A stretch of DNA of 64,000 nt from Anaerolineales bacterium. GTDB lineage: Bacteria; Chloroflexota; Anaerolineae; Anaerolineales; Villigracilaceae. The notes beneath the pieces are model-generated. The model was given only the letters and a program-made list of their open reading frames with translations, did no database searches and was not told the DNA's origin. Each line of letters starts with the position of its first letter. Position 1 is the stretch's first letter. This document shows, in pieces, positions 2,909-59,261 of the stretch. Made by a program: the position numbers and the translations under genes. Where the stretch lies: NCBI GenBank assembly GCA_034435215.1, contig DAOTXM010000492.1:12611-76610 (forward strand), given 5' to 3'.

Positions 2909-2909
2909 G

Positions 2910-19569: not shown

Positions 19570-19700
19570 GTCATTGCGAGCGTTCCTTCCTGACACTGAC
19601 CGTCAGGACGGTGTGCGAAGCAATCCTATTTTCAAGTAATTCACGGATAATTTTGGGCCACGAGATTGCTTCGTCGAGAAGTACGCCTCCTCACAATGAC
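19570..19700. repeat. Palindromic intergenic repeat, copy b
   Basis: GTCATTGCGAG..CGAAGCAATCC...GAGATTGCTTCG..CCTCACAATGAC between the hdrL start and the mvhD stop. Confidence 0.8.
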
Positions 19701-19713
19701 ATAAATGCGCATG

Positions 19714-20211
19714 TTATTTGCGTCTGCCGCGAAATTTGTTCTCCTCTTCTTCGATTTCTTTTTCAGGGACCTTAGCCGCCTCCTTCCAGACCTTTAACGG
19801 GTTCGGCCCTAATTGGCGGATTCGTTCCGTCATGGTTTGGGCGGCCATCGCAAAGGCTTGTCCCTGGCTACCGGACATAAAGAACATATCCAGACGCTCT
19901 TTACCCAAACCAATTTCATCTAATAATTTCTGTGCCCGTTGAATTCTGGCCAGTCCGCGCTCATTGCCGCGTACATGATGGCAATTTCCAATCGGGCAGG
20001 CAACCTCGTAGACGCCGTCCGCCCCTTGTTCGAAAGCCTCTAAAATGTAGCGGATGTCCGTTTTCCCGGTGCAGGGTAGACGGATAAATTTAACGTTGGC
20101 TGGATATTGAATGTACAGTGCGCCAGCCGTGTCAGCCGCCATATATCCGCAGTATACGCAGTAGAAGGCGGTGATCTCAGGTTCAAAGGGTGGAGCTGGA
20201 TTATCCTTCAT
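19714..20211 (-). CDS. mvhD: MvhD-like [2Fe-2S] subunit (Cys form)
   Basis: 165 aa with ITAFYCVYCGYMAADTAG, LPCTGK and ACPIGNCHH. ATGA overlap with the upstream hdrA. Confidence 0.9.
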   Translation of the reverse strand: MKDNPAPPFEPEITAFYCVYCGYMAADTAGALYIQYPANVKFIRLPCTGKTDIRYILEAFEQGADGVYEVACPIGNCHHVRGNERGLARIQRAQKLLDEIGLGKERLDMFFMSGSQGQAFAMAAQTMTERIRQLGPNPLKVWKEAAKVPEKEIEEEENKFRGRRK

Positions 20212-23200
20212 CGCAATATCTCATACCCTTTTCCTGGCAACCAGCTTCCCAATCCGGCAACGTTGCGGAGCATGATCTGGCTGTCGGTGAAATTGACAAG
20301 CTGTATCGCATTGGCAGGGCATTCGCCGGTACAGGTTCCACATCCTTGGCACTGGGCCGAATCAATATAAGCTGCTCCACCCAGTTTTCCGACCCCATAT
20401 CGACCTTCTTCCTGAATGACCTGTGGAATGCCAAAAGGACAGGTGCGAGTGCAAGTCAGGCAACCGACACACTTTTCAGGGTCGACCTGGGCAACTACCC
20501 CGCCCAGGTAAAGCGATTCCCAGGCCAACAGGGTTATCGCACGTGCAGAGGCGGCTAAAGCGTGACTGATACTCTCTTCGATGAACTTAGGATAGTGCGC
20601 CATGCCTGCCAGGAAGATACCCTCACGCATGAAATCCATTGGGCGCAGTTTCAACTGCGCCTCGCTGAAGAACCCTTCACTGGACAGGGGAACGCGCAAC
20701 ATTTGGGCAAGCTCTCTTGTGCCTTCAGATGGTGCAATGGACATACTCAGGGGGATAATATCCGCTGGAAGCAACAGCCAACGATCCAGTGACACATCCA
20801 GCACTTTTACTTCCAGATGGTCCTGAACCCAATTGATTTGGGGAGGATTCTCATCGGTATAACGAACAAAGATCACCCCACGTTGACGAGCTTCTGTATA
20901 GTGCTCTTCGCGAAAACCATACGTAACGATGTTTTTATACAGCACGCTAACCTGACAGTTTGGATTCATCAACTTGATACGAATGGCATTTTTCAATGTG
21001 GCAGTACAACATACTCGCGAGCAATAGTCTGCTTCACCCGGGGGATGCACACATTGGATCATCACCACATTCTTTAAGGCCGCAATTTGCTCAGGATGAT
21101 GAATAACTGTCTCCTCCAACTTTCTCTGCGTAATCACATTGGGGAGATCCAGCCAAGGATGTTTCTGGGTCTCCTGGCCACCGGTCGCAACGATGGTCAC
21201 ACCGTGATCGAAGGCTGTTCTCACAACAGTCCCATCCTGCTGCCGAGTGGTAATCTCAGTCTGGAAATAACCCACATGGCCGGTATGCTTTACCACCTCG
21301 GTACGCGTAAAGACATTGATCCGTTGATGCGAACGGACGCGATTGACCAGATCGCGCAACAGGCGTTGCGGGTTGAAACCTGCAGCAACGTAGTAAATAT
21401 TTAGAAGGTTCCCCCCTAACATTTCAGATTGTTCTACCAAGTTGACGCTGAAACCACTATCTGCAATGGCTAGTGCAGCAGTCAGTCCTGCTACACCTCC
21501 TCCAATGACCAATGCATTTGACCTGCAACGATGCTTCTTTTTGTACACCGGCTGTGCCAAAGCAACTCGGCCCACCGCGATACGGATCGATTCCAGGGCT
21601 TTACGCTGGGCCAAGTCTCGCTGCCACTGGTGGACTCTCCCACATTGCTCGCGCAAATTGACCAATTCTAATAGATAAGGATTCAAACCTGCATGTCTAA
21701 CAGTACGTTGGAAGAGTGATTCATGTGTTCGACTGCTACACGCTGCAATGACGATCCGGTTGATGTTTTCAGTTTGAATCTTTCCTCGGATGTACTCCAG
21801 AGATTCAGGGACACAGGCGAACTCAAGCACCTCGCTTGATACTACACCATCCCATTTGGCCACCTGATTTGCCAGGTCCTTGGTATCCAAGTTTTCACCC
21901 AGGGTATCTTTACAAGAACAGACAAAAACACCCGTGCGCAGAGGCTGATCAGAAACATCCTTTTCGGGGGGTAAACCGTCCACTGATAGGAAAGGCCATT
22001 GACGGGTATAAACATTTGAACACAAACGGTCATTGAGCAATCGCATGACCTCTGCAGCGGCACCGCTGGCGTCAATAACAGTTTCAACAATTTCCTTCGG
22101 TGAAGAAAATGCTCCGCAGACAAATACTCCTGGATGGGTAGTTTGCAAAGGGGTGAATTTTTCCGTCCGGCAGAATCCATATTCGTTCAGTTCGATGTTG
22201 AAACTCTTAGAAAGCTGGGCAGCCGAACTTGGAGGAAGCACTCCGGTTGCCAAAACAACCATTCCATATCGTTGTTGTTTAAGCGGCCCATTGGGATCGG
22301 CATAATTTACGATAACATCATGACTATCCGGGTCTTCTTGAAGTGAAGAGACTCGACAGCGACTGTAATGAATGTTGTACTGGTTCCGTGCCCTTGAAAA
22401 ATATTTGTGGTACTCTTTGTTGAACGCTCGTTCATCCATGATGAAAATCTGGCATTCAATTTCTTCTCCCAAACGCTGCTTGGCCAGGATCGCTTCTTTG
22501 GTGGCATACATGCAACAAATCGATGAGCAATAGGAGTATTCCGGGCTGCGTGAACCTATGCATTGCAACCAGGCGATCGATCGAGGACGTTGACCATCTG
22601 AAGGGCGCACCAAAATTCCTTCCGTCGGACCCGAACGACTGGCAAGCCGTTCGTATTGCATGGCATGTAGTACGTTCGGATATCGCCCATAACCATATTC
22701 TTCCAACTTGGATGGGTCAAAACTCTGAAAGCCTACAGCAAGGACAATAGCGCCAACCTCAACCGAGAGCAATCGCGCTTGTTGATCCAAGTCAATAGCC
22801 CCGGTTGGACATATTTCCGCGCATTTTTTACAATCAGGCTGGCATTGATTACGGTCGATCACGTAAGCATCTGGCATAGCCCGCGCAGCGACTTTATAAG
22901 CCGCCTTGCGAATACTTAATCCCTGTTGGTATTCATCTGCAAGCTCAACCGGACAAACTTGGGAGCAATACCCACAGTTTATACAGCGCGCCGGATCAAC
23001 GAAACGTGGTTCTTGACGCAGTGAAACAGTAAAGTCTCCAGCCTGGCCTTCCGCATCAATAACCAGCGTATTGGTTAAGATCTCAATATTAGGATGCAAG
23101 TTGTGTTGAATATAAGCCGGGGAGATAGAGGGACGGGTACATCCGTAGCCGTGGTCTGATGTGCCTCTACAAAGAACGCAATCATGTTGGGGGAACATAA

Positions 23201-23366
23201 AACCGAGCTGTGCGACTCGCCCACCCAAACAGGGGGTTTGCTCGACCAAATACACTTTCAGGCCAGCATCCGCAAGGTCAAGGGCAGCACGCATTCCTCC
23301 AATGCCGCCACCTACGACCAAAACCATCGGTCTGGCTTGAATGTTTGGAGAGTTTGGAGCATACAT
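20208..23366 (-). CDS. hdrA: Tandem HdrA-like flavoprotein (two HdrA units joined by an MvhD-like domain)
   Basis: 1052 aa with VVGGGIGGMRAALDLA, CINCGYCSQVCP, LQCIGSRS..YCSSICCMYATKEA, GVFVCSCKDTLGE, a second VIGGGVAGLTAALA, and terminal CVGCLTCTRTCP / CQGCGTCTGECP. Confidence 0.88.
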   Translation of the reverse strand: MYAPNSPNIQARPMVLVVGGGIGGMRAALDLADAGLKVYLVEQTPCLGGRVAQLGFMFPQHDCVLCRGTSDHGYGCTRPSISPAYIQHNLHPNIEILTNTLVIDAEGQAGDFTVSLRQEPRFVDPARCINCGYCSQVCPVELADEYQQGLSIRKAAYKVAARAMPDAYVIDRNQCQPDCKKCAEICPTGAIDLDQQARLLSVEVGAIVLAVGFQSFDPSKLEEYGYGRYPNVLHAMQYERLASRSGPTEGILVRPSDGQRPRSIAWLQCIGSRSPEYSYCSSICCMYATKEAILAKQRLGEEIECQIFIMDERAFNKEYHKYFSRARNQYNIHYSRCRVSSLQEDPDSHDVIVNYADPNGPLKQQRYGMVVLATGVLPPSSAAQLSKSFNIELNEYGFCRTEKFTPLQTTHPGVFVCGAFSSPKEIVETVIDASGAAAEVMRLLNDRLCSNVYTRQWPFLSVDGLPPEKDVSDQPLRTGVFVCSCKDTLGENLDTKDLANQVAKWDGVVSSEVLEFACVPESLEYIRGKIQTENINRIVIAACSSRTHESLFQRTVRHAGLNPYLLELVNLREQCGRVHQWQRDLAQRKALESIRIAVGRVALAQPVYKKKHRCRSNALVIGGGVAGLTAALAIADSGFSVNLVEQSEMLGGNLLNIYYVAAGFNPQRLLRDLVNRVRSHQRINVFTRTEVVKHTGHVGYFQTEITTRQQDGTVVRTAFDHGVTIVATGGQETQKHPWLDLPNVITQRKLEETVIHHPEQIAALKNVVMIQCVHPPGEADYCSRVCCTATLKNAIRIKLMNPNCQVSVLYKNIVTYGFREEHYTEARQRGVIFVRYTDENPPQINWVQDHLEVKVLDVSLDRWLLLPADIIPLSMSIAPSEGTRELAQMLRVPLSSEGFFSEAQLKLRPMDFMREGIFLAGMAHYPKFIEESISHALAASARAITLLAWESLYLGGVVAQVDPEKCVGCLTCTRTCPFGIPQVIQEEGRYGVGKLGGAAYIDSAQCQGCGTCTGECPANAIQLVNFTDSQIMLRNVAGLGSWLPGKGYEILR

Positions 23367-43714: not shown

Positions 43715-45022
43715 ATGACAACCAAAACAGTGATGGTGATCGGGGCCGGGATCGCCGGCCTGACAGCCGCCTACCAGCTCAAGAAGGCAGGGCACAACGT
43801 TCTGGTCCTGGACATGAACAACTACGTTGGCGGGCGCATGGCCAACGTCGAATGGGAAGGCTTCCTGGTGGATATCGGGGCGAAATTCGTCACCACCGCC
43901 GACAAGTCGCTGTTGAAGATGGTCGAGGAGCTGGGGTTGAGCGACCAGATGGTCAAATCGACGGAAGGATTGACGATCACGATCTACCGGGATGGCAAGT
44001 TACATAGCGCCAATTTCCTGTCGATCCCCTCCTATTTTGGCTGGAGCGGTGTCTCTCTCAAGGCGCGCCTGGCAATGCTCAAACTGCTGCCGTATTTCCT
44101 GAAAGTAGGCAAGTTGGAGAGCGTTTATCACCTGGAGCGTGCTGCCTTGCCGGATGTGGATGAAACCTACGAACAGTTCTTCAAAGAGCACATCAGTGAG
44201 GAAATGTTCGAATATTGGGCTATTCCCATGTTCGAAACCATGTGCGCCTACACAGGCGAGGATGTTTCACGCAAGGCTTTCCTGGCAATGATGATGAGCT
44301 ACCTGAACGCCGACTCGGTCACGTTCCGGGATGGGATCGGGGTACTTCCGAAAAAACTGGCGGAGCAGGTCGAAGTCGAGCTGACGGCCCGGGTGAACGG
44401 GATCAGGATGGAGCAGGATGGAAGCGGTGTGGACGTCCGCTATAGCGTAGACGGCAAATCGAAAACGGTCGGCGCGGACCGTGTGATTGTCGCCGTTCCC
44501 GGGAACCACGTCCTGCCCCTGTTGGAGGACCCGCGGCCCGCCTGGCAGGCATTCTTCCCCAAGGTGCACTACAGCACCGGGGCGCTGCACTACCACATCG
44601 CAGAGACGGACTATCGGCCGCCCGTCAAAGGGACGTTCGTGCCGCGTTCGACAGGGCTGCCGATCAACAGCGTGGCCTTCGAGCGCCACCAGGACGGGCG
44701 CTGGCTGATGTTGACCGATCCGAGCGTATACACCTTCGACATGGCGCAGGACCCGGACATGCTGGCTGCGCAGGCGCAGGAGGTGGCCTGCACCATCTTC
44801 CCGGCATTGAAAGGGACCTTCCGCGCACACCGCATCTTCAAATGGCGCGACAAACTGCCCACCTTCCGTCCCGGCTACCTGGATGCACTGGCGCGCTTCT
44901 GGGAGAACCCGCAGGAGGGACCGGTCTATTTCTGCGGCGACTGCTTTGCCGGGCCGAGCACGGGCGGAGCGTTATACACCGGCATGGAATGCGCGGAACG
45001 TGTGCTCCAATCTTTTGGGTAG
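43715..45022 (+). CDS. FAD-dependent oxidoreductase (amine oxidase / protoporphyrinogen oxidase superfamily)
   Basis: 435 aa with the dinucleotide fold VMVIGAGIAGLTAAYQLKKAGHNVLVLDMNNYVGGR and a C-terminal FCGDCFAGPSTGGA. Confidence 0.8.
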   Translation: MTTKTVMVIGAGIAGLTAAYQLKKAGHNVLVLDMNNYVGGRMANVEWEGFLVDIGAKFVTTADKSLLKMVEELGLSDQMVKSTEGLTITIYRDGKLHSANFLSIPSYFGWSGVSLKARLAMLKLLPYFLKVGKLESVYHLERAALPDVDETYEQFFKEHISEEMFEYWAIPMFETMCAYTGEDVSRKAFLAMMMSYLNADSVTFRDGIGVLPKKLAEQVEVELTARVNGIRMEQDGSGVDVRYSVDGKSKTVGADRVIVAVPGNHVLPLLEDPRPAWQAFFPKVHYSTGALHYHIAETDYRPPVKGTFVPRSTGLPINSVAFERHQDGRWLMLTDPSVYTFDMAQDPDMLAAQAQEVACTIFPALKGTFRAHRIFKWRDKLPTFRPGYLDALARFWENPQEGPVYFCGDCFAGPSTGGALYTGMECAERVLQSFG

Positions 45023-45078
45023 TACCCTTTTTACCGAAGTGGAACCTGTGTCTTTGTCAGCTGAAGTTCAACTTGCAC

Positions 45079-45108
45079 TTGACTAAAGAACATTTGTTCT
45101 AATATAAT
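45079..45108 (+). promoter_or_regulatory. Near-consensus sigma-70 promoter with embedded LexA-type SOS box
   Basis: TTGACT (45079..45084) - 18 nt - TATAAT (45103..45108). The spacer contains AGAAC-ATTT-GTTCT (45087..45100), a perfect GAAC-N4-GTTC palindrome. ATG of the next gene is at 45116. Confidence 0.7.
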
Positions 45109-45115
45109 TCTAAAC

Positions 45116-45538
45116 ATGTTCCTGCTCCCATCCCGCCTGCGCAAGCTCCTGCAAAGGGCCAAGGGGTCGGATTCGCGCACCTTCAGCGCGGACCAGGAGT
45201 TGTTGGCCGCCATTCAAGAAGCTGCGCAAGCACAGGGCCGCAGCGAAGAAGAAATCTGGATGGACTTTGCCAGGGCCGGCCGGGAACAGTACCGGCAGAG
45301 TGGCGCGCTGGAAGCCCGCTGGGATTCGCTCTCGGAACGCGAGCAGGAGGTCACGGCACTGGCCTGCATGGGGTACAGGAACTACGAAATCGCCAAAACC
45401 CTGGGCATCTCCCACGAAACGGTCAAGACTCATTTGCAGAATGTCTTCATCAAATTCGATATCCACAGCCGCAAGGAACTGCGCCTGGCGCTCAGGGATT
45501 GGCGCTTCGATGAGTGGTGGGAGGATCGCAGCCCATAA
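45116..45538 (+). CDS. LuxR/GerE-type HTH regulator
   Basis: 140 aa. C-terminal LSEREQEVTALACMGYRNYEIAKTLGISHETVKTHLQNVFIKFDIHSRKEL is a canonical GerE HTH. N-terminal 70 aa not recognised. Confidence 0.85.
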   Translation: MFLLPSRLRKLLQRAKGSDSRTFSADQELLAAIQEAAQAQGRSEEEIWMDFARAGREQYRQSGALEARWDSLSEREQEVTALACMGYRNYEIAKTLGISHETVKTHLQNVFIKFDIHSRKELRLALRDWRFDEWWEDRSP

Positions 45539-45612
45539 GCAGCTATAGGGGGTGAAATTGCTCCGCCCCCACCCCTGCCTCCCCCAACGGCCTACCCCGA
45601 AAATCCCCCGCA

Positions 45613-45639
45613 CAATCCCCTGGCAGGGGATTGTTTTTT
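45613..45639 (+). terminator. Intrinsic terminator after the LuxR-type gene
   Basis: CAATCCCC-tggca-GGGGATTG followed by TTTTTT. Confidence 0.8.
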
Positions 45640-45665
45640 CATGCGTCCAACTTTATGCTGAGAAT

Positions 45666-46193
45666 ATGAACAAATTTTCTATATTACAACCCGGTCGTTG
45701 GACGCTGGCCCCTTTGCCGCGACATGAGCAACGGGAACAGGTGCTGGCTTGCATCGCAACCCTGGCGCTGGAAGGACCGGTCCTAGTTCTGGACGGCGGC
45801 GTGCTTTTCAATGTCTACAGGGTCGTGATGGCAGCCCACGGCCAGACGCGCCTCCTGAACCGCATCCGCTTCGCGCGCGCCTTCACCTGTTACCAGATAG
45901 TCGCCCTGCTCGAGCGTACGCCCGCCGAAGAGTTTTTCGTAGTCATTCTGGATTTGCTGGCGACTTTCCAGGATGAGAACGTACCCGCGGGCGAGCGCCT
46001 GCGCCTGTTGAAAACCTGCCTGCCGCACTTAACCCGCTTGAGCCGCCCACGCGGAGCGCTGGTTAGCGTGGGGCCGATTGCCAACATGCCGCCTGAATCC
46101 CGACCCCTGTTCCAGCTTCTTGAACGGGAAGCCGCGCAAGTGGTTGGATGGCAAACGCCCGCGCTCCCCGAGGGGCCTGCCAGACTCTTTTGA
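45666..46193 (+). CDS. RecA/Rad51-fold protein lacking a Walker A loop (ImuA/SulA-like)
   Basis: 175 aa from ATG 45666. VLVLDGGVLFNVYRV, RIRFARAFTCYQIVALLE and FFVVILDLLATFQDE...ERLRLLKTCLPHLTRLSR parallel RecA/Rad51 strands and the Walker B region, but no GxxxxGK(T/S) is present. Confidence 0.55.
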   Translation: MNKFSILQPGRWTLAPLPRHEQREQVLACIATLALEGPVLVLDGGVLFNVYRVVMAAHGQTRLLNRIRFARAFTCYQIVALLERTPAEEFFVVILDLLATFQDENVPAGERLRLLKTCLPHLTRLSRPRGALVSVGPIANMPPESRPLFQLLEREAAQVVGWQTPALPEGPARLF

Positions 46194-46194
46194 A

Positions 46195-46461
46195 ATGGGC
46201 CGCAATCTTCCCTCCATCACACAGGTCTTCCAGGAAGACAAAGAGTATCTTGTCCGCTTCCGCCGCCTGCTGCCCCGGCACGAGCACTGGATCATCGACG
46301 AGCTGCTGGCTTTCGCCCACCGGCACATCCCCGCGGTTGCTTATGCCGGGCATCCCCTGCCGTTCGTCATGTTCCTGCTGGCCATGCTGGTCGAACAACA
46401 CAAGCAACTCAAACGGCTGGAAGACGCGCTACATGCCATAAAAGAAGGGCGAAATGGGTGA
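46195..46461 (+). CDS. Hypothetical 88-aa protein, translationally coupled on both sides
   Basis: ATG lies 1 nt after the upstream TGA. Its stop overlaps the PolB start by 8 nt. No recognisable motif. Confidence 0.5.
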   Translation: MGRNLPSITQVFQEDKEYLVRFRRLLPRHEHWIIDELLAFAHRHIPAVAYAGHPLPFVMFLLAMLVEQHKQLKRLEDALHAIKEGRNG

Positions 46462-48787
46462 TTACACCGGCTGGCTGCTGGACCTGTACACCCATCCGCG
46501 TGACGGCCTGGTGCTCTGGCTGCTGTGCGACGACACCCGCCGGCGCCGCTTCCGGCAGGATTTCCCGGTCACGTTCTACGCCGCCGGCCCCGACCAGCGC
46601 CTGCGCGCGCTGTGGAAATTTCTGCGCGACCAGCCTGTGCAGGTCGAACTCTCCCGCGAAGAGCGGCGGGACTTGTTCTGCGGTCCGGTCACAGTGCTGG
46701 CGGCGCGCGTCCGGAATCCGCACCAACAGCCTGGCCTGTTCTGGCAGGTTGCGCGCCGGTTCCCGGATTTGAACTTTTACAACGCCGATATCCCCATCCA
46801 TCTGCACCATGCCGCGGCCTATGGCACCTTCCCGCTGGCGCGCTGCCGTACGCAAACAGACGGGCAGGGGAACATCGTTCACGTCGAAATGCTGGACTCG
46901 CCCTGGAAGCTGCACTCCCGCCCACCGCCGTTGCGCACTCTGACGGTCGAACCCGATGCCGATCCCTTCCACGCTTCGCCCAGGCGCCTGGTCCTGCGTA
47001 CCGCGCTCGGGCATTTTTCCATCCCCCTGGAACCCCGCGCGGACCTGCTGCGGACGTTACAGGAACGCCTCCTGCGCTACGACCCTGATCTGCTGTTGAC
47101 TGCCTGGGGTGACACCTGGCTGCTGCCAAAGTTATTGGAATGGGCCGAACAGCATAAAATGCGCCTGCCTCTCAACCGCGAACTGGGCGCAGGCGTGGTC
47201 CGGCGCGCCGAGCGCTCCTATTTTGCCTACGGGCAGGTTATCTATCGGGGACAGCAGGTCAAGCTGTTTGGGCGCTACCATATCGATATCCACAACGCAG
47301 TCATGTACCGCGATTACGGCCTGGACGGCATTTGGGAACTGGCGCGCGTCACCTCCCTGCCTGTGCAAACCGTGGCGCGTGTCTCACCGGGGACGGGCAT
47401 CTCCGCCATGCAGATTGTCACCGCCTTGCGGGAGAACATCCTCGTTCCCTGGCACAAGCAGGAACCAGAAGCGCTGCGCTCCGCGGCCGGGCAGTCCCGC
47501 ACGGACCTGGGCGGCCTGGTTGCCCAGCCGCCGGTCGGCCTGCACCGCGATGTGGCGGAGATCGATTTCATCTCCATGTATCCCAGTATCATGCGCCACT
47601 TCAACATCTCGCCGGAATTGGTGGGGGTGCCGGGCAATGAACCTGGCTTGGTCCCCAAGACGCTGGCGCCCCTGCTGGACAAGCGCGTTGCCCTCAAGCG
47701 GGCTCTCATGACGCTGCCAAAGGACGACCCCAACTACGTGCGCTTCAAGGCCTGTGCTTCCGCGCACAAGTGGCTGCTGGTCACCTGCTTCGGTTACCTG
47801 GGATACAAGAACGCCCGCTTCGGGCGCATCGAGGCGCATGAAGCGGTCACCGCCTTGGGGCGCGAAGTCCTTTTGCAGGCCAAGGAAGTCGCGGAAGGCA
47901 TGGGTTTCACGGTGCTGCATATGTACGTGGACGGCCTTTGGATCAAGAAAGAAGGCTGCAAAACGGTCAAGGACTTCGAGGCTTTGCTGCTCTCGATCCA
48001 CGAGCGGACAGGTCTCCCCATTGCGCTGGATGGCGTCTTCCGCTGGATCGCCTTCCTGCCATCCAGGCAGGATGCGCGCCTCTCGGTCGCCAATCGCTAT
48101 TTCGGTGTCCTCCAGGATGGCTCGACCAAGGAGCGTGGCATCGAACTGCGCCGCCAGGATACGCCGCCCTTCGTGGCGAAGGTACAGAGAAAAATACTGA
48201 ATATCCTGGCGCGGGCGGAGGATGCACGCGATTTGCCCTTTTATCTCCCCGAGATCCGGACGCTCGTGAACGAAGGGTTGGATGCTTTACGGCGCGGGGG
48301 GATTCCTTTGGAAGAACTCATCGTCCGCCAGCGCCTGAGCCGCGAACTGGACGCGTATCGCATGCCTTCGCCCGCCGCCCGCGCCGCCGCGCAATTGAGG
48401 GAAATCGGCAGGAATTTGCGGCCAGGGCAATCGGTGCGTTTGCTGTACATACGCGGTGAACCGAATGTCCGCGCCTGGGATTTGCCCACAGCGCCCGATC
48501 CGGCAGAGATCGACCTGGCCTGTTATCGGAAATTATTGTTAGAAGCGGTACAGGCGATTCTAGAACCGATACAGGAAAGTAAGAATCTTTTCCCTTATCA
48601 AATTCCACTTCCAAACCTGGAGGAGAATCCTTTGGTTGAGTTCCCTAGCGTAGATTTGTCATTGCGAGCCGGTCTTTGGCGAAGCAATCTCCTTGGGATA
48701 AGGGAAACCCCGGCAAAAGGGAGATTGCTTCAGGAAAACCACTCTCGTAATGACACCCTTTTGGTAGATAGCATTAGCGTACGATGA
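46454..48787 (+). CDS. Family-B DNA polymerase, divergent (eroded exonuclease motifs, atypical motif C)
   Basis: 777 aa. Motif A DFISMYPSIM, motif B-like KWLLVTCFGYLGY, motif C position VLHMYVDGLWI, KxY-like ANRYFG, GIELRRQD. The last about 45 aa are encoded by a palindromic repeat (48658..48754). Confidence 0.85.
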   Translation: MGDYTGWLLDLYTHPRDGLVLWLLCDDTRRRRFRQDFPVTFYAAGPDQRLRALWKFLRDQPVQVELSREERRDLFCGPVTVLAARVRNPHQQPGLFWQVARRFPDLNFYNADIPIHLHHAAAYGTFPLARCRTQTDGQGNIVHVEMLDSPWKLHSRPPPLRTLTVEPDADPFHASPRRLVLRTALGHFSIPLEPRADLLRTLQERLLRYDPDLLLTAWGDTWLLPKLLEWAEQHKMRLPLNRELGAGVVRRAERSYFAYGQVIYRGQQVKLFGRYHIDIHNAVMYRDYGLDGIWELARVTSLPVQTVARVSPGTGISAMQIVTALRENILVPWHKQEPEALRSAAGQSRTDLGGLVAQPPVGLHRDVAEIDFISMYPSIMRHFNISPELVGVPGNEPGLVPKTLAPLLDKRVALKRALMTLPKDDPNYVRFKACASAHKWLLVTCFGYLGYKNARFGRIEAHEAVTALGREVLLQAKEVAEGMGFTVLHMYVDGLWIKKEGCKTVKDFEALLLSIHERTGLPIALDGVFRWIAFLPSRQDARLSVANRYFGVLQDGSTKERGIELRRQDTPPFVAKVQRKILNILARAEDARDLPFYLPEIRTLVNEGLDALRRGGIPLEELIVRQRLSRELDAYRMPSPAARAAAQLREIGRNLRPGQSVRLLYIRGEPNVRAWDLPTAPDPAEIDLACYRKLLLEAVQAILEPIQESKNLFPYQIPLPNLEENPLVEFPSVDLSLRAGLWRSNLLGIRETPAKGRLLQENHSRNDTLLVDSISVR
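48658..48754. repeat. Palindromic repeat, copy c (inside the 3' end of the PolB ORF)
   Basis: GTCATTGCGAG..CGAAGCAATCTCC...GGAGATTGCTTC..CTCGTAATGAC. Confidence 0.8.
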
Positions 48788-49320
48788 ACAGCCAGCAAAA
48801 ACCAAACAAGTCCAGGGTTTTCGTCATCCACGGCCGGGATGAAGGGATGCGCCGCGCGCTCTTCGATTTCTTGCGTTCCATCGATTTGAAGCCCATCGAG
48901 TGGAACGAAGCCGTTGCGCTGACCGGAAAACCGTCTCCATTTGTGGGCGAAATCCTGGATGCGGCCATGCAGTATGCACAGGCCATTCTCGTACTCTTTA
49001 CCGGTGACGACCAGGCGCGGCTGAGGGATGAATTCCTGTCGTGCAATGATCCCGCTTATGAAAGGGAGACCACTCCACAGTCCAGGCCGAACGTGATCTT
49101 CGAAGCCGGTCTGGCCTTGGGGAAATATCCTGAGCGCACTATCCTCGTCCAGGTTGGAAATCTCAGACCGTTCAGCGATATTGCCGGCCGGTATCTGATC
49201 CGGCTGAAGAATACTTCCAAGTCCAGGCAGGAGCTGGCGTTGCGCCTGCGACTTGCGGGCTGCGAAGTGGATCTCTCTGGGACAGACTGGCATGATGCCG
49301 GGACGTTTCCGGTGAAATAA
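48784..49320 (+). CDS. TIR-like nucleotide-binding domain protein (COG4271 / CAP12-Pycsar-TIR type)
   Basis: 178 aa with RVFVIHGRDEG...FL...LKPIEW...ILVLFTGDD...RPNVIFEAGLALGKYPERTILV...PFSDIAGRY, matching the pattern of stand-alone bacterial TIR-like proteins. ATGA overlap with the PolB stop. Confidence 0.75.
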   Translation: MNSQQKPNKSRVFVIHGRDEGMRRALFDFLRSIDLKPIEWNEAVALTGKPSPFVGEILDAAMQYAQAILVLFTGDDQARLRDEFLSCNDPAYERETTPQSRPNVIFEAGLALGKYPERTILVQVGNLRPFSDIAGRYLIRLKNTSKSRQELALRLRLAGCEVDLSGTDWHDAGTFPVK

Positions 49321-49323
49321 AGG

Positions 49324-49384
49324 CGTCCCGAAGATTGAATTTGAGATTATTTGCTTTTTCGCGAAAAACCTTCGGGACGTTTTT
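49324..49384 (+). terminator. Terminator after the TIR-like gene
   Basis: CGTCCCGAAG...(36-nt loop with inner TTTTTCGCGAAAAA hairpin)...CTTCGGGACG followed by TTTTT. Confidence 0.6.
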
Positions 49385-49443
49385 GATAAGAAAGCCTTCC
49401 CGTCGATTGGACAGGAAGGCCTATCAAACTTTTCTACGCAAAT

Positions 49444-49550
49444 GTCATTACCTCACCAAAGTACGGCGGGGTTGCGAGGAGGGCGTTCTTCCCGCAAAGC
49501 AATTCCCTTCTGCAATGAGATTGCTTCGCCGCTACGCGGCTTGCAATGAC
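49444..49550. repeat. Palindromic repeat, copy d
   Basis: GTCATTACC..GCAAAGCAATTCC...GAGATTGCTTCG..CTTGCAATGAC, between the TIR-like gene and the ppdK stop. Confidence 0.75.
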
Positions 49551-49556
49551 ATATGT

Positions 49557-52316
49557 TTACTTATCTTCCGCAATACTCTTGCCACTATGTTTCAAGGCCA
49601 CATGCGCCGCGGCCAGGCGCGCCACCGGCACGCGGAACGGCGAGCAGGAGACGTAGTTATTGCCAATGATGTGGCACCATTCGATGGACTCGGGATCGCC
49701 GCCGTGCTCGCCACAGATGCCCACTTCCAATTCAGGACGGGTCTTGCGGCCCTCGGCAATCGCCATATCCATCAGCCTGCCCACGCCCTCGCGGTCGAGC
49801 GTCTGGAAGGGATTCTTTGGCAGGATGCCCTGCTCCACATACGTAACCAGGAAGTTGCGCTCGGCGTCGTCGCGCGAGTAGCCAAAGGTCATCTGGGTCA
49901 GGTCGTTGGTGCCAAAGGAGAAGAACTGCGCCAGTTTGGCCACCTCGCCAGCCGTCACGGCAGCGCGTGGGATTTCGATCATCGTCCCGAACTTGTATTC
50001 GAACTCGATGCCTTTCTCTTTCATTACAGTCGAGGCAATGCGCTCAAGGCGCGGCTGGATCCATTCCAGTTCCTTGACCGTGCCGGTCAGCGGGATCATC
50101 ACTTCGGGCTTAACCACGATACCGCGCTTGGAGCAATCTGCAGCGGCCTCGAAGATGGCGCGTACCTGCATCTCGACGATCTCGGGCATAGCAATGCTCA
50201 GGCGCACGCCGCGCAGACCCATCATTGGGTTGGATTCGTGCAGGCTTTTGATGGCTTTCAGCAAGTTTTCTTTTTCTTGCAAGCCTTTGGTCTCGCCCTT
50301 CACGCGCATGGTGATGACTTCTTCGAGCAGGGCTTCTTCGTCGGGCATGAACTCATGCAAAGGCGGGTCGATCAGGCGAATGATGACGGGATAACCATCC
50401 ATCGCTTCGAACAGGCCATCGAAGTCAGAACGCTGGCTGGGCAACAGCAGGTTCAGTTGTTTGGTGCGCTCTTCGCTGGTATTCGCCAGGATCATCTTCT
50501 GGACAATGGGCAGGCGTTCGGGTTCGAAGAACATGTGCTCGGTCCGGCACAGACCGATGCCCACCGCGCCGTACGAGCGGGCGCGTCGCGCATCCTTGGG
50601 ATAGTCGGCGTTGGTCCACACCTGCAGGCCGCGGGTGGGATAACCCTTTGGCCCCTTGCGCATGCCGTCGCGGGCGCAGATCTCGTCAGCCCAGTTGAGC
50701 AGGGTCATCAGCTCGGTTTGTTCCTCGAGCGAGGGCGCACTCGTCGGGATTTTGCCGACGAACACCTCGCCGGTGGTGCCGTCCACTGAAATCCATTCCC
50801 CTTCTTTGACAATCTTGCCATCCACGGACATCTGGCGTTTTTCGAGATCGATCTTGATGGCTGACGCACCCACTACACATGGAATGCCGAACTGACGGGC
50901 GACCACCGCTGCATGCGACGTGGCGCCGCCCTCGCTGGTGAGCACGCCCTGGGAGGCGATCATGCCATGTACGTCATCCGGTTTAGTGAACGGTCGCACC
51001 ATGATCACTTCCTGCTTGCTCTCCTTGGCCATTTTCTCGGCTGTGTCAGCATCGAAATATGCCTGGCCGACGGCCGCGCCCGGGGAAGCATTGACGCCTT
51101 TGGCAAAGAATGCTCCGGATCCTTCGGCTGCCTTCTTGGCTTTGTCATCGAACTGTGGGTGCAGGAGCGCATCCACATTCTCCGGGCTGACGCGCAGAAC
51201 CGCCTCATCCTTCGAAATCAGACCTTCGTTAGCCATATCCACCGCAATCTTGACCGCGGCCTTGGCCGTCCGCTTGCCGCTACGAGTCTGGAGCATCCAC
51301 AGTCTGCCGCGTTCGATGGTGAACTCGACATCCTGCATTTCCTTATAGTGTCGCTCCAGTTTATCGGTAATTTCCATGAACTGGGCATATGCTTCGGGCA
51401 GAGTCTTCTGCATATTGACGATCGGTTCAGCATTGCGGATGCCGGCCACCACGTCTTCGCCCTGGGCATTGAGCAGGTAGTCACCCAACATCTTTTTCTC
51501 GCCTGTGGACGGATCGCGGGTGAAGGCCACGCCGGTGCCCGAGTCGTCTCCCATGTTGCCGAAGACCATGGTTACGATGTTGACAGCCGTACCCAGATCA
51601 TCCGAGATCCCGGTAGCACGACGATAATCCACGGCGCGCTTGCCATTCCAGGATTTGAAGACCGCTTCGGTTGCCAGTTCCAGTTGCTTGTAAGCATCCT
51701 GTGGAAAGTCCTGACCGGTTTCTTTCTTGAACACATCCTTGAACGTGGCGACCAACGCCTTCCAGTCCTCGGCTGTCAGTTCGGTATCGCTTTTATAACC
51801 CTTCTTGGCTTTGTATTCCGCCATTGGATGCTCGAAGGCTTCGTCGGCAATATCCATCACCACGGTGCCGAACATTTCGACCAGGCGGCGGTAAGAATCG
51901 TACACGAAGCGTGGATTGTCCGTCAGCTTGACCATCCCCTCAGCGGTGTCATCGTTCAGGCCAATATTAAGCACCGTATTCATCATGCCCGGCATGGAGA
52001 ACTTGGCCCCCGAGCGGCAGGAAACGAGCAGCGGATTGTTGGCATCGCCGAACTTCTTGCCGGTTTTCTCTTCCACCGCTTTCATGGCTGCCAGTTCCTG
52101 CTCCCACTGACCCGGAGGGAACTTACCCGTTTTGCGATATTCGTTACAAGCCTCGGTTGTGACCGTAAAACCGGGGGGGACCGGCACGCCTGCGCGGGTC
52201 ATATCCGCCAGCCCGGCGCCCTTTCCACCCAGCAGGGCGCGAACACCTTCCCAATCGCCGGCGTACTTCTCAGCCTCGGCGACTTCCTCGAAAAGGTAAA
52301 CCCATTTTTTTGACAT
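49557..52316 (-). CDS. ppdK: Pyruvate, phosphate dikinase
   Basis: 919 aa from ATG 52316 (MSKKWVYLFEE..GGKGAGLADM). Catalytic-His region TSEGGATSHAAVVARQFG. C-terminal GICGEHGGDP. The track ORF is extended 51 aa upstream. Confidence 0.97.
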   Translation of the reverse strand: MSKKWVYLFEEVAEAEKYAGDWEGVRALLGGKGAGLADMTRAGVPVPPGFTVTTEACNEYRKTGKFPPGQWEQELAAMKAVEEKTGKKFGDANNPLLVSCRSGAKFSMPGMMNTVLNIGLNDDTAEGMVKLTDNPRFVYDSYRRLVEMFGTVVMDIADEAFEHPMAEYKAKKGYKSDTELTAEDWKALVATFKDVFKKETGQDFPQDAYKQLELATEAVFKSWNGKRAVDYRRATGISDDLGTAVNIVTMVFGNMGDDSGTGVAFTRDPSTGEKKMLGDYLLNAQGEDVVAGIRNAEPIVNMQKTLPEAYAQFMEITDKLERHYKEMQDVEFTIERGRLWMLQTRSGKRTAKAAVKIAVDMANEGLISKDEAVLRVSPENVDALLHPQFDDKAKKAAEGSGAFFAKGVNASPGAAVGQAYFDADTAEKMAKESKQEVIMVRPFTKPDDVHGMIASQGVLTSEGGATSHAAVVARQFGIPCVVGASAIKIDLEKRQMSVDGKIVKEGEWISVDGTTGEVFVGKIPTSAPSLEEQTELMTLLNWADEICARDGMRKGPKGYPTRGLQVWTNADYPKDARRARSYGAVGIGLCRTEHMFFEPERLPIVQKMILANTSEERTKQLNLLLPSQRSDFDGLFEAMDGYPVIIRLIDPPLHEFMPDEEALLEEVITMRVKGETKGLQEKENLLKAIKSLHESNPMMGLRGVRLSIAMPEIVEMQVRAIFEAAADCSKRGIVVKPEVMIPLTGTVKELEWIQPRLERIASTVMKEKGIEFEYKFGTMIEIPRAAVTAGEVAKLAQFFSFGTNDLTQMTFGYSRDDAERNFLVTYVEQGILPKNPFQTLDREGVGRLMDMAIAEGRKTRPELEVGICGEHGGDPESIEWCHIIGNNYVSCSPFRVPVARLAAAHVALKHSGKSIAEDK

Positions 52317-58715: not shown

Positions 58716-59261
58716 CTATTTCTTTTTTGTCTTGGTCGAAGAAGATTTGTCAGTGGTCTTCTTCGCTGTAGTCTTCTTAACCGGAGCCTTTTTAGCCTGT
58801 TCCTCTTTCGCAGCCGGTTTCTTCCCCTTTGGGGACGATGTGGCTGTTCCTTTTTTCTTTTCGAGCTTCTTTTCAACCTTGGCTTCGGCTTGCTCTTCAG
58901 CAGGGGCTTCCGCTTTCTCGACCCTGGCAGCCTTGCGCACCTCGCCGGGTTTTCCAATCCCATCCACCATCAAACGTGTGTATTGCTGGCGATGGCCGAC
59001 TTTGACGCGGATGCGTTTCTTCGGGCTGTATTTGAAGACGGTAAGTTTGGGGCCCTTGAAATGGTTCAACACCGTGGTATTGATCTGTACACCGTCAATA
59101 GTGGGCATTCCAACGGTAACTTCTTCACCGTTTACCAACATCAACACGCGTTCCAGACCAACTTTTTCGCCAGCGTCGACCGGCAGACGATCGACCTCGA
59201 TGGTCTCGCCTTCGACGGCCTTGTATTGCTTGCCGCCGCTTTCCACAATTGCATATTTCAT
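58716..59261 (-). CDS. rplU: Ribosomal protein L21 with Lys/Ala-rich C-terminal tail
   Basis: ATG 59261: MKYAIVESGGKQYKAVEG...HRQQYTRL (L21 core of about 103 aa), then about 78 aa of AEAPAEEQAEAKVEKKLEKKKG..KKPAAKEEQAKKAPVKKTTAKKTT..TKTKKK. Confidence 0.9.
   Translation of the reverse strand: MKYAIVESGGKQYKAVEGETIEVDRLPVDAGEKVGLERVLMLVNGEEVTVGMPTIDGVQINTTVLNHFKGPKLTVFKYSPKKRIRVKVGHRQQYTRLMVDGIGKPGEVRKAARVEKAEAPAEEQAEAKVEKKLEKKKGTATSSPKGKKPAAKEEQAKKAPVKKTTAKKTTDKSSSTKTKKK

What the first reader, a model, noticed from the sequence alone, without database searches (positions are those of the whole stretch)
45116..49320. Candidate new damage-inducible module: LuxR regulator, P-loop-less RecA-fold protein, 88-aa protein, exo-degenerate PolB, TIR-like protein
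After the SOS-box promoter, the LuxR-type gene and its terminator come four genes joined by 1-nt spacing or overlaps. They run 45666..46193, 46195..46461, 46454..48787 and 48784..49320. The first is a RecA/Rad51-like fold without a Walker A loop, as in ImuA/SulA-type proteins. The third is a family-B polymerase that appears to lack proofreading residues. This resembles the imuA-imuB-dnaE2 SOS mutagenesis cassette, but with a PolB in place of DnaE2 and no Y-family ImuB. It also has an added TIR-like protein of the type used as an effector in CBASS/Pycsar immunity. Two readings are possible. (a) It is a PolB-based translesion or mutagenesis machine controlled by a LexA-to-LuxR cascade. (b) It is a conflict or abortive-infection module in which DNA damage or aberrant DNA synthesis is coupled to a nucleotide-degrading TIR effector. 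I do not recognise this combination as a described system.
Basis: inference. Interest (0 to 1): 0.85.

Follow-up and report, generated by a model that had tools for sequence, protein, structure and literature searches.

The report
Damage-inducible PolB2 mutasome operon
This is a bacterial copy of the already described three-protein "PolB2 mutasome" (an inactive RadA, the small PPB2 protein and a proofreading-less family-B polymerase) for copying damaged DNA; the part that appears new is a two-step LexA-to-LuxR switch that seems to turn it on and that also controls the neighbouring TIR-like gene.

Summary
The five ORFs, the SOS-box promoter and the hairpin after the LuxR gene are all present at the stated coordinates. 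The three central genes are not a new system. They are the iRadA-PPB2-PolB2 operon, linked by Makarova 2014 and modelled as a heteropentameric translesion "mutasome" by Timinskas et al. 2025, who include Anaerolineae operons with the same YVD active-site variant.

Three things go beyond those papers:
1. In 31 of 34 related loci the LexA box sits in front of the small LuxR/GerE gene. It almost never sits in front of iRadA.
2. iRadA has its own conserved leaderless promoter. Its -35 region lies in a C-rich repeat array and a CCCC/GGGG palindrome centred near -43. The palindrome's flanking bases co-vary with the LuxR recognition helix.
3. The same promoter type lies directly upstream of the TIR-like gene in four loci that lack the polymerase genes, and three of these carry the LuxR gene next to it.

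The TIR-like gene is absent from all other PolB2 operons sampled. In the window it is separated from conserved PolB2 sequence by a palindromic repeat.

Verdict: a known system with a lineage-specific LexA-to-LuxR relay and a co-regulated TIR-like gene of unknown role. The CBASS-like immunity reading is not supported.

The parts
45079..45108 (+). SOS-regulated promoter of the LuxR gene. It has -35 TTGACT (45079-45084), the LexA-box-like palindrome AGAACATTTGTTCT (45087-45100) and -10 TATAAT (45103-45108). The ATG lies 7 nt downstream, so the mRNA is probably leaderless.
   Evidence: The same box (at most 1 mismatch) lies upstream of the LuxR gene in 31/34 related loci, usually 28-32 nt before the ATG.
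45116..45538 (+). Small LuxR/GerE-family regulator (140 aa). It has an N-terminal helical region of about 65 aa and a C-terminal HTH, with no receiver or ligand-binding domain. It is the proposed SOS-induced activator.
   Evidence: GerE 1.8e-15. A dedicated subfamily with a conserved WDFSxW C-terminus lies directly upstream of iRadA in 40/86 loci. Its recognition helix co-varies with the downstream palindrome.
45593..45665 (+). LuxR-type ('P_CCCC') promoter of the mutasome operon.
- C-rich direct repeats.
- Palindrome ACAATCCCCT-GGC-AGGGGATTGT at 45612-45634, centred about -43, followed by a T-run. It also has the form of an intrinsic terminator for the LuxR transcript.
- Weak -35 TTGTTT at 45631-45636.
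- -10 TATGCT at 45654-45659, 6 nt before the iRadA ATG, so the mRNA is probably leaderless.
   Evidence: An nhmmer profile of 19 such regions finds this as the only site in the 64-kb window (E 2.4e-13). In about 750 kb of loci it hits only upstream of iRadA or TIR-like genes. No SOS box is present here.
45666..46193 (+). iRadA: a catalytically inactive RadA/Rad51-core protein (175 aa). It lacks a Walker A motif and the N-terminal domain, and ends in ...PARLF, a candidate beta-clamp-binding tail.
   Evidence: BLASTP to a published iRadA gives 3e-23.
46195..46461 (+). PPB2 (arCOG07300 / DUF8156): an 88-aa helical protein with the N-terminal MGR(N/T) arm.
   Evidence: BLASTP to two published PPB2 sequences gives 2e-14 and 4e-12, aligned from residue 1. 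Homologues carry PF26485 in precomputed annotation. It is always found between iRadA and PolB2.
46454..48787 (+). PolB2: a family-B DNA polymerase with a dead exonuclease domain and the motif C variant Y-V-D. The part conserved across relatives ends near residue 706 (about 48571). Residues from about 734 to 777 are translated from a palindromic repeat.
   Evidence: In the family alignment of 29 sequences, motif A D371, motif B K439 and motif C D493 are invariant. Position 491 is Y in 26/29, and ExoII shows N to W and D to L. The motif 'HMYVDGLWI' is listed for a Chloroflexi PolB2 in PMC11791011.
48654..48755 (.). Dispersed palindromic repeat element (GTCATTGCGAG...GAAGCAATCTCC / GGAGATTGCTTC...TAATGACA) between conserved PolB2 sequence and the TIR-like gene. 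A second copy lies at about 49485-49554.
   Evidence: The core motif occurs 5 times in the window against 0.41 expected.
48784..49320 (+). TIR-like protein (PF10137, CAP12/Pycsar-type TIR fold; 178 aa) with invariant E107 in NVIFEAG. It is probably co-transcribed with PolB2 here. Its function is unknown.
   Evidence: The LuxR-type promoter lies directly upstream of its orthologues in L093, L094, L095 and L100.
49319..49390 (+). Terminator-like hairpin (GTCCCGAAG...CTTCGGGAC followed by TTTTT) that ends the unit.
   Evidence: (I5).

Best explanation
Identity (shown here or established in the literature):
- Genes 2-4 are a bacterial PolB2 mutasome operon (iRadA, PPB2, PolB2).
- Published AlphaFold models have one PolB2, one iRadA and a PPB2 trimer forming a translesion polymerase complex. 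In Sulfolobus, PolB2 is required for damage-induced mutagenesis.

Proposed control (inferred from sequence and comparison):
1. DNA damage leads to LexA cleavage. This de-represses the leaderless LuxR gene, whose LexA box sits between -35 and -10.
2. The LuxR-type protein binds the CCCC/GGGG palindrome and upstream C-rich repeats. These overlap the weak -35 of a second leaderless promoter, at a class-II activator position of about -43.
3. That binding switches on iRadA-PPB2-PolB2.
4. The same palindrome plus its T-run terminates the LuxR transcript, so the polymerase genes are insulated from direct SOS read-through.
5. The relay would delay or threshold expression of an error-prone polymerase.

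Action of the complex (inferred):
- The complex is probably brought to the beta-clamp by the C-terminal xxRLF tail of iRadA.
- It would then extend primers across or past lesions without proofreading.

TIR-like gene:
- In this Anaerolineales lineage it belongs to the same LuxR-controlled set. It is transcribed behind PolB2 here and directly from the LuxR-type promoter in genomes that lack the polymerase genes.
- Its biochemical role is not established. NAD+ or nucleotide hydrolysis is the obvious guess.
For: Identity:
- Gene order and tight spacing.
- The iRadA profile hits RadA at 2.6e-7. RAD51/RadA are the top folds. No Walker A is present.
- BLASTP to published iRadA and PPB2 gives 3e-23 and 2e-14.
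- PolB2 motifs match the published description.
- Synteny holds in all long loci.

SOS control:
- The box (at most 1 mismatch) lies upstream of LuxR in 31/34 loci. Only 1 locus has a box between LuxR and iRadA.
- In LuxR-less loci, 13/27 have the box directly upstream of iRadA.
- Background is 0.14 boxes per kb.
- lexA is enriched near bacterial polB2 in the literature.

Relay:
- The conserved -10 lies 6-7 nt before the iRadA ATG, and the palindrome is centred at about -43.
- The P_CCCC promoter and a direct SOS box at iRadA are mutually exclusive: 34 loci against 17, with none having both.
- Recognition helix K-T-H pairs with GGGGAT arms (14:1). K-G-Y pairs with GGGGTG arms (10:0). Fisher's test gives 3e-6.

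TIR link:
- P_CCCC lies directly upstream of TIR-like genes in L093, L094, L095 and L100, with E from 5e-6 to 2.5e-10. None of these was in the training set.
- LuxR with an SOS box is adjacent in L094, L095 and L100.
- The PolB2-TIR spacer is at most 45 nt in 5 of 6 loci that carry both.
Against: - No expression, binding or activity data exist for any bacterial member.
- LexA specificity in Anaerolineae is assumed from the Gram-positive/Dehalococcoides-type GAAC-N4-GTTC motif.
- The palindrome could be only a terminator, or LuxR could be a repressor.
- The helix/operator covariation may reflect a single evolutionary event, because it is not corrected for phylogeny.
- 19 of 42 LuxR-adjacent loci do not reach the promoter-profile threshold, and 5 loci have the promoter without a nearby LuxR gene.
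- The window's iRadA tail (PARLF) lacks the Q of the QLxLF clamp motif.
- The TIR-like gene is far better conserved (80-90%) than the cassette. It stays beside ppdK when the cassette is replaced by a version only 42% identical, or is absent.
- It is absent from every other PolB2 operon sampled and from the top 20 neighbours of 1823 published operons.
- No P_CCCC site lies between PolB2 and the TIR gene in the window.
Confidence: 0.7

Rival explanations
1. The TIR-like gene is an unrelated chromosomal backbone gene. The locus upstream of it, next to ppdK, is merely a hot spot where LuxR-PolB2 cassettes insert, are exchanged or are lost. Adjacency would then carry no functional meaning.
For: - TIR-like orthologues are 80-90% identical, while the cassette in front of them varies. 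PolB2 is 86% identical in L001 but 42% in L092 and L102, and is absent in L095 and L100.
- Transposases flank the cassette in L092 and L096.
- A repeat element separates PolB2 from TIR in the window.
- No TIR-like gene occurs next to about two dozen other complete PolB2 genes, and it is not in the published top-20 neighbours.
Against: - Four loci without polymerase genes have the LuxR-type promoter immediately upstream of the TIR-like gene. One is in a different genomic context (L094) and one has no LuxR gene nearby (L093).
- That is hard to explain by a hot spot alone.
Confidence: 0.3
2. There is no regulatory relay. The whole unit is one SOS operon read through a leaky terminator. The LuxR protein regulates something else or is an autoregulator or repressor, and the C-rich region is only a terminator.
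For: - The hairpin plus T-run has the form of an intrinsic terminator, and such structures are often leaky.
- The spacing between LuxR and iRadA is short, 127 nt.
- 15 of 40 loci lack a detectable hairpin and T-run.
Against: - A -10 hexamer is conserved at a fixed 6-7 nt from the iRadA ATG, and GG(G)ATTG is conserved at -35 even where no hairpin exists.
- The promoter stays with iRadA when unrelated genes are inserted between LuxR and iRadA (L032, L033, L039, L084).
- The promoter occurs without an upstream LuxR gene in L093.
- The recognition helix and the operator co-vary.
Confidence: 0.15
3. One reading: the module is an anti-phage or abortive-infection system in which aberrant DNA synthesis or damage is coupled to a TIR NADase effector.
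For: - PF10137 is the TIR domain of Cap12 and PycTIR effectors.
- The protein hits the PADLOC candidate family PDC-S35 at 3.6e-20.
- Its best structural match is TIR-STING.
- The putative catalytic Glu is invariant.
Against: - No CD-NTase, cyclase, STING/SAVED or other sensor domain is present. The protein is the bare TIR-like domain and lacks the N-terminal part of the PDC-S35 models.
- The neighbours are housekeeping genes: amine oxidase, ppdK, V-ATPase and FtsH.
- The polymerase trio is a widespread repair-type operon associated with lexA, SRAP and DUF72, and it nearly always lacks the TIR-like gene.
Confidence: 0.07

Closest known systems
PolB2 mutasome operon (iRadA-PPB2-PolB2; Makarova et al. 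2014, PMC4104785; Timinskas, Timinskas & Venclovas 2025, PMC11791011; 'G2/PolB2' in PMC12926913)
   Same: - Same three families in the only order reported for bacteria.
- PolB2 has a dead exonuclease and the first Asp of DxD replaced (YVD, as listed for Chloroflexota).
- PPB2 has the N-terminal MGR arm.
- iRadA lacks the P-loop and the N-terminal domain and carries a hydrophobic C-terminal tail.
- The operon is associated with the SOS system.
   Different: - Here and in about half of the Anaerolineae-type loci, LexA control appears indirect, through a dedicated LuxR/GerE gene and a second promoter. The papers only list GerE in a supplementary table and discuss lexA adjacency.
- A TIR-like gene is appended in this sub-lineage.
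- The PolB2 ORF runs into a repeat element.
ImuA-ImuB-DnaE2 SOS mutagenesis cassette
   Same: Both are LexA-controlled multi-protein translesion machines that include a RecA-fold protein without recombinase activity and use a clamp-binding accessory subunit.
   Different: - There is no Y-family ImuB and no C-family DnaE2.
- iRadA is of archaeal RadA descent, with top hits to RadA/Rad51 rather than to RecA or ImuA.
- The polymerase is family B.
- The relationship is analogy, not membership.
E. coli Pol V mutasome (UmuD'2C-RecA) and Pol II (polB)
   Same: - Like Pol V, it is an SOS-induced, late-acting, error-prone complex with a recombinase-fold subunit. The published comparison makes this point.
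- Like Pol II, it uses an SOS-inducible family-B polymerase.
   Different: - Pol V is family Y and uses active RecA.
- Pol II keeps an active proofreading exonuclease, a canonical DTD motif and its own QLGLF clamp motif, and matches the window protein only weakly (E 1e-10).
Class II LuxR/NarL-type activators (lux box centred at -42.5; NarL 7-2-7 heptamer sites). The comparison rests on my own knowledge.
   Same: - A GerE-type HTH protein.
- A palindromic site overlapping a weak -35, centred at about -43.
- A CCCC-containing half-site reminiscent of the NarL TACCCCT heptamers.
   Different: - No receiver or autoinducer domain is present.
- The input appears to be transcriptional, through LexA, rather than a ligand or phosphorylation.
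- The site doubles as a terminator hairpin.
- Binding has not been tested.
CBASS Cap12 (TIR-STING) and Pycsar PycTIR effectors
   Same: The PF10137 TIR-like fold and the conserved Glu in the NV-x-FE-x-G motif.
   Different: - There is no nucleotide-sensing domain and no cyclase partner.
- NCBIfam Cap12 models match far below cutoff (19 bits against 450).
- The gene sits in a housekeeping context and is controlled by a damage-linked promoter.

Membership tests
PolB2 mutasome operon | Three adjacent co-oriented genes in the order iRadA, PPB2, PolB2 (the only order reported in bacteria) | tested here: met
   Genes at 45666-46193, 46195-46461 and 46454-48787, with a 1-nt gap and an 8-nt overlap. 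The same order occurs in all related loci.
PolB2 mutasome operon | PolB2 is a family-B polymerase with motifs A and B intact and the first Asp of the motif C DxD replaced | tested here: met
   DFISMYPS, K439 and Y491-V-D493. D371 and D493 are invariant in 29 relatives. YVD is listed for Chloroflexota in PMC11791011.
PolB2 mutasome operon | [quoted passage not shown] | tested here: met
   ExoII N to W218 and D to L223. The ExoIII Tyr is W in 20/29. ExoI is not DxE.
PolB2 mutasome operon | iRadA is a RadA/Rad51 ATPase-core fold without the N-terminal domain and without ATPase-site residues | tested here: met
   Profile against RadA gives 2.6e-7. Foldseek top hits are RAD51/RadA/DMC1, probability 1.00. 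Walker A is present in 0/48. BLASTP to a published iRadA gives 3e-23.
PolB2 mutasome operon | PPB2 is a helical protein of about 90 aa with a conserved N-terminal 'MGRT' arm | tested here: met
   It starts MGRNLPSITQ. BLASTP to published PPB2 gives 2e-14 and 4e-12 from residue 1. The three-helix and trimer structure was not modelled here.
PolB2 mutasome operon | Assembly of a PolB2:iRadA:PPB2x3 heteropentamer | not testable with these tools
   No multimer prediction is available. The feature rests on published models of 40 other operons.
PolB2 mutasome operon | Clamp-binding motif (QLxLF-like) on iRadA or PolB2 | tested here: inconclusive
   iRadA ends in PARLF. Most of the 48 relatives end in x-x-R-L-F/W, and some in QLRLW. 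The Q is missing in the window protein.
PolB2 mutasome operon | DNA-damage-inducible expression | not testable with these tools
   Only sequence-level support is available: the conserved LexA-box-like palindrome.
ImuA-ImuB-DnaE2 cassette | Catalytically dead Y-family ImuB and C-family DnaE2 polymerase | tested here: not met
   No IMS or DNA_pol3_alpha domain occurs in the five proteins or in the other window ORFs scanned. A DnaE-type gene occurs next to the trio only in L010/L011.
CBASS / Pycsar | A CD-NTase or pyrimidine cyclase gene, plus an effector with a nucleotide-sensing domain | tested here: not met
   Only a bare PF10137 domain is present. Cap12 NCBIfam models score 19 and 15 bits against a cutoff of 450. 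No cyclase was found among the flanking ORFs scanned. PADLOC gives only the domain-level candidate PDC-S35.
E. coli-type Pol II | Active DEDDy exonuclease, DTD motif C and membership of the Pol II NCBIfam models | tested here: not met
   Pol II models score 38-64 bits against cutoffs of 570-1435. The best model is the archaeal-type NF004416 at 9e-120.

The most novel reading that the evidence does not exclude
In Anaerolineales, a dedicated LuxR-type activator made only after LexA cleavage defines a small second-tier SOS regulon. It would co-induce an archaeal-derived PolB2 mutasome and a stand-alone TIR-like enzyme. The TIR-like protein would then be a genuine DNA-damage-response effector, for example one causing NAD+ or nucleotide hydrolysis that leads to growth arrest or pool sanitation. 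It would work alongside the polymerase, or could substitute for it in genomes that keep only LuxR and TIR. That would be a TIR-fold protein wired into bacterial DNA-damage signalling rather than into phage-sensing circuits.
Probability: 0.3. Interest if true: 0.65.

Novelty: new variant of a known kind. Interest (0 to 1): 0.4.

Why it matters
- The PolB2 mutasome is the least understood prokaryotic translesion machine. No bacterial member has been studied experimentally, and its regulation in bacteria has been inferred only from lexA adjacency.
- A conserved LexA-to-LuxR relay with a recognisable operator gives a concrete, testable model for delayed or thresholded induction of an error-prone polymerase.
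- It also gives a handle for finding further regulon members, through the promoter profile and the helix/operator covariation.
- The link to a TIR-like gene would, if real, widen the roles of bacterial TIR-fold proteins beyond immunity.
- For the scan itself, the main point is corrective. The "new system" is a described one.

Tried and rejected
Searches that gave nothing:
- Pfam and NCBIfam searches of the 175-aa and 88-aa proteins gave no hit. The local Pfam copy lacks PF26485/DUF8156, so even good PPB2 homologues score nothing.
- Searching Kazlauskas 2020 for neighbourhood, RecA, TIR or SOS terms found nothing.
- Rfam at a permissive threshold found no riboswitch or attenuator in 44800-49700. 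The idea that the LuxR-iRadA spacer is a cis-regulatory RNA was dropped.
- A literature search for LexA or SOS-box with TIR or NADase returned only eukaryotic papers. A search for Chloroflexi LexA motif papers returned only general statements.
- tblastn for the TIR-like protein in 90 loci anchored on PolB2 or iRadA found it only in L001. TIR contexts therefore had to be collected from the TIR side.

Ideas checked and set aside:
- The 1052-aa ORF at 20208-23366 was checked as a possible DnaE2. It is an Fe-S/FAD oxidoreductase.
- Genes inserted between LuxR and iRadA in L032, L033 and L084 are unrelated (HigBA, SDR, flavin reductase, MntP) and are not extra system parts.
- A "split sigma factor" was considered, because PPB2 is reported as sigma-region-2-like and the LuxR protein weakly resembles sigma region 4. 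It was set aside because PPB2 is conserved in archaea, the TIR-only loci use the promoter without PPB2 nearby, and the -10 looks sigma-70-like.
- The acidic E-P-D at the ExoI position is conserved in the family. Because ExoII and ExoIII are lost, I do not read it as a functional exonuclease site.

Full report
**Observation**

The ORF list shows five co-oriented ORFs at exactly the stated coordinates:
- 45116-45538 (140 aa)
- 45666-46193 (175 aa)
- 46195-46461 (88 aa, an internal ATG of a longer ORF)
- 46454-48787 (777 aa)
- 48784-49320 (178 aa)

The junctions are a 1-nt gap, an 8-nt overlap and a 4-nt overlap. A near-consensus promoter, TTGACT-N18-TATAAT (45079-45108), encloses AGAACATTTGTTCT (45087-45100). 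That sequence is the GAAC-N4-GTTC type of LexA box, described for Firmicutes and Actinobacteria in PMC3323433. From my own recollection it was also reported for Dehalococcoides. A hairpin with a 10-bp stem and a T-run lies at 45612-45640. Pfam gives GerE (1.8e-15), DNA_pol_B (1.1e-22) and CAP12-PCTIR_TIR (3e-28), and nothing for the 175-aa and 88-aa proteins. The flanking genes are housekeeping: a GH25/SH3 wall hydrolase, an amine oxidase, ppdK, V-ATPase subunits, FtsH, the CCA-adding enzyme and thymidine kinase. The nearest relatives are Anaerolineales MAGs.

**The 175-aa protein**

It has 751 database relatives, all unnamed. A profile of 48 of them matches the ATPase core of archaeal RadA/Rad51 at E 2.6e-7, starting just after the P-loop. 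The AlphaFold model (pLDDT 90) has RAD51, RadA and DMC1 as its top 50 Foldseek hits.

**The polymerase**

Its best matches are archaeal family-B enzymes (5mdn, E 3e-34) and the NCBIfam archaeal-type model NF004416 (9e-120, below cutoff). E. coli Pol II matches only weakly. In an alignment of 29 relatives:
- Motif A Asp371, motif B Lys439 and the second Asp of motif C (D493) are invariant.
- The first Asp of DxD is Tyr in 26 of 29.
- The exonuclease II Asn and Asp are Trp and Leu.

**Identification with a known system**

A literature search led to Timinskas, Timinskas and Venclovas 2025 (PMC11791011) and to Makarova et al. 2014 (PMC4104785). These papers describe an operon of PolB2, an inactivated RadA ("iRadA") and a helical protein of about 90 aa (arCOG07300, "PPB2"). 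Their main points are:
- The operon was transferred once from archaea to bacteria.
- In bacteria it is found only in the order iRadA-PPB2-PolB2.
- PolB2 usually lacks the first Asp of DxD and has a decayed exonuclease domain.
- PPB2 carries an N-terminal MGRT arm.
- Clamp-binding motifs lie mostly at the iRadA C-terminus.
- lexA, SRAP and DUF72 are enriched nearby.
- High-confidence AlphaFold models give a PolB2:iRadA:PPB2x3 complex.
- PolB2 is required for damage-induced mutagenesis in Sulfolobus islandicus.

The window matches this description in several ways:
- The window's 88-aa protein starts MGRN. It aligns from residue 1 with two published PPB2 sequences (2e-14 and 4e-12).
- The 175-aa protein aligns with a published iRadA (3e-23).
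- The motif string HMYVDGLWI is listed in their supplement for a Chloroflexi PolB2.
- Homologues of the 88-aa protein carry PF26485/DUF8156 in precomputed annotation.
- Synteny of the three genes holds in every long enough locus I fetched.

The core is therefore a member of a described system, not a new one. The imuA-imuB-dnaE2 resemblance is an analogy.

**Regulation**

I fetched 5 genome loci, 80 metagenome loci anchored on iRadA, and several contigs by exact protein look-up.

- A LuxR/GerE gene of one dedicated subfamily lies directly upstream of iRadA in 40 of 86 non-duplicate loci. The subfamily has a conserved N-terminal helical part, an HTH and a C-terminal WDFSxW.
- Of the 34 loci with enough upstream sequence, 31 have AGAAC-N4-GTTCT (at most 1 mismatch) within 200 nt upstream of the LuxR start. 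It usually lies 28-32 nt before the ATG, that is between -35 and -10 of a promoter for a leaderless mRNA.
- Only one of these loci has a box between LuxR and iRadA.
- In loci without LuxR, 13 of 27 have the box directly in front of iRadA.
- The background is 0.14 boxes per kb, true sites included.

SOS control of the operon is thus conserved, but it comes in two designs: direct, and via LuxR.

**The second promoter**

Right-anchored on the iRadA ATG, the LuxR-type loci share this consensus:

gtta-CCCC-aaaaTCCCCC-N-aaTCCCC-N3-5-GGGGATTGTTTTTT-N-GCTAcxCTGGxGGC|ATG

In the window:
- The -10 is TATGCT at 45654-45659, 6 nt before the ATG.
- The -35 is a weak TTGTTT at 45631-45636.
- The palindrome at 45612-45634 is centred near -43.

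From general knowledge, -43 is the position used by class-II LuxR-type activators, and the half-site resembles NarL heptamers. In 25 of 40 loci the palindrome plus its T-run also has the form of an intrinsic terminator ending about 32 nt before the ATG.

An nhmmer profile of 19 such regions gave one hit in the 64-kb window. In about 750 kb of loci it hit only upstream of iRadA, or upstream of TIR-like genes as described below. This promoter and a direct SOS box at iRadA never coincide: 34 loci against 17, with none having both. The promoter stays with iRadA when unrelated genes are inserted after LuxR.

The LuxR recognition helix co-varies with the palindrome:
- K-T-H helices go with GGGGAT arms (14:1).
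- K-G-Y helices go with GGGGTG arms (10:0).
- Fisher's test gives 3e-6. It is not corrected for phylogeny, so the pattern may reflect a single switch.

I infer a relay:
1. LexA represses the LuxR gene.
2. The LuxR protein activates the mutasome promoter.
3. The palindrome also insulates the polymerase genes from read-through.

The published work lists GerE as the seventh most frequent neighbour family (131 of 1823 operons) in a supplementary table but does not discuss it. Neither paper mentions LuxR in its main text.

**The TIR-like gene**

It is PF10137, with an invariant Glu107 in NVIFEAG. The AF2 model has pLDDT 88. Its best PDB match is TIR-STING (E 2.5e-4), and it hits the PADLOC candidate PDC-S35 (3.6e-20).

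Against membership of the system:
- It follows PolB2 in only one (L001) of about two dozen complete PolB2 genes that were retrieved without reference to it.
- It is not among the published top-20 neighbours.
- In the window it is separated from conserved PolB2 sequence by a dispersed palindromic repeat (48654-48755). The PolB2 ORF happens to read through that repeat, and this creates the 4-nt overlap.
- Its orthologues are 80-90% identical and stay beside ppdK while the cassette in front varies. PolB2 is 86% identical in L001 and 42% in L092 and L102, and is absent in L095 and L100.

For a link:
- In L095 and L100 the arrangement is SOS box, LuxR, P_CCCC, TIR-like, ppdK.
- In L094 the same LuxR, P_CCCC, TIR-like unit sits in a different context.
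- In L093 P_CCCC lies directly upstream of the TIR-like gene with no LuxR nearby.
- The profile E-values for these sites range from 5e-6 to 2.5e-10, and none was in the training set.
- In 5 of 6 loci with both genes the PolB2-TIR spacer is at most 45 nt.

The best reading is that the TIR-like gene is not part of the mutasome, but in this lineage it belongs to the same LuxR-controlled, damage-linked set. Its biochemical role is unknown. No cyclase, STING/SAVED or other sensor accompanies it, so the CBASS/Pycsar-like reading is not supported.

**Verdict**

It is wrong that the system is undescribed, and the immunity reading is unsupported. The three-gene core is already known, from in silico work in bacteria and experiments in Sulfolobus.

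What appears new is the relay design, its operator, and the co-regulated TIR-like gene. All of this is inferred from comparative sequence analysis only. I rate it a new variant of a known kind, of moderate interest.

Noticed in passing
L098 230-4955: The PolB2 gene of a close relative is split by a group II intron ORF (RVT_1 + GIIM, 2303-4069). The two PolB2 halves are 84-85% identical to the window protein.
   Followed up: no
L010/L011 3743-6898: A 1051-aa DnaE-type Pol III alpha gene (PHP, DNA_pol3_alpha, finger, HHH_6) lies directly upstream of iRadA-PPB2-PolB2 on the same strand. It may be a DnaE2-like second damage polymerase beside the mutasome. Whether it is DnaE1 or DnaE2 was not decided, and no SOS box was found upstream.
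   Followed up: partly
L008/L009 7028-7561: An iRadA homologue (48% identity) has its own TTGACA/SOS-box/TACAAT promoter but no PPB2 or PolB2 within 7 kb. A PAS_10 protein, an MGMT-type methyltransferase and an AP endonuclease lie downstream.
   Followed up: partly
window 48654-48755, 49485-49554, 19661-19672: A dispersed palindromic repeat (GTCATTGCGAG...GAAGCAATCTCC / GGAGATTGCTTC...). One copy is translated as the last ~44 residues of the PolB2 ORF, and another lies after the terminator of the TIR-like gene. The core occurs 5 times in the window against 0.41 expected.
   Followed up: partly
window 45103-45118 and 45654-45668; most related loci: Both promoters place the -10 hexamer 6-7 nt before the ATG with no Shine-Dalgarno sequence. 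The LuxR and iRadA mRNAs are therefore probably leaderless. The TIR-only loci (L094, L095, L100) instead have a 45-75 nt leader.
   Followed up: partly
L001, L092, L096 compared with the window: The modules are mosaic.
- L001 combines a LuxR only 38% identical to the window's with a trio that is 86% identical.
- L092 has that second LuxR type with a trio that is 42% identical and a TIR-like gene that is 88% identical.
- Transposase genes flank the cassette in L092 and L096, which suggests cassette exchange at this locus.
   Followed up: partly
L032 1079-1711; L033 1067-2427; L084 2088-2654: Unrelated genes are inserted between the LuxR gene and the iRadA promoter: a HigB/HTH toxin-antitoxin pair, an SDR plus a flavin reductase, and MntP. 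The P_CCCC promoter remains adjacent to iRadA.
   Followed up: yes
L035, L036, L045, L053, L078, L081 (about 75 nt upstream of iRadA): These are hybrid promoters. A CACCC...GGGGATG element is followed by an SOS box that overlaps the -10 region, with no LuxR gene within 900 nt upstream. They may be an intermediate between the direct and relay designs.
   Followed up: no
window 58823-58835: The only other TCCCC-N-GGGGA palindrome in the window (TCCCCTTTGGGGA). The promoter profile does not hit it, so it is probably an ordinary hairpin.
   Followed up: partly
window 45116-45538 and 46195-46461: The LuxR protein weakly matches sigma-70 region 4 and ECF sigma models (Sigma70_r4_2, 2.4e-5). PPB2 is reported in PMC11791011 to resemble sigma region 2 structurally. 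A split-sigma relationship was considered, but no evidence supports it.
   Followed up: partly
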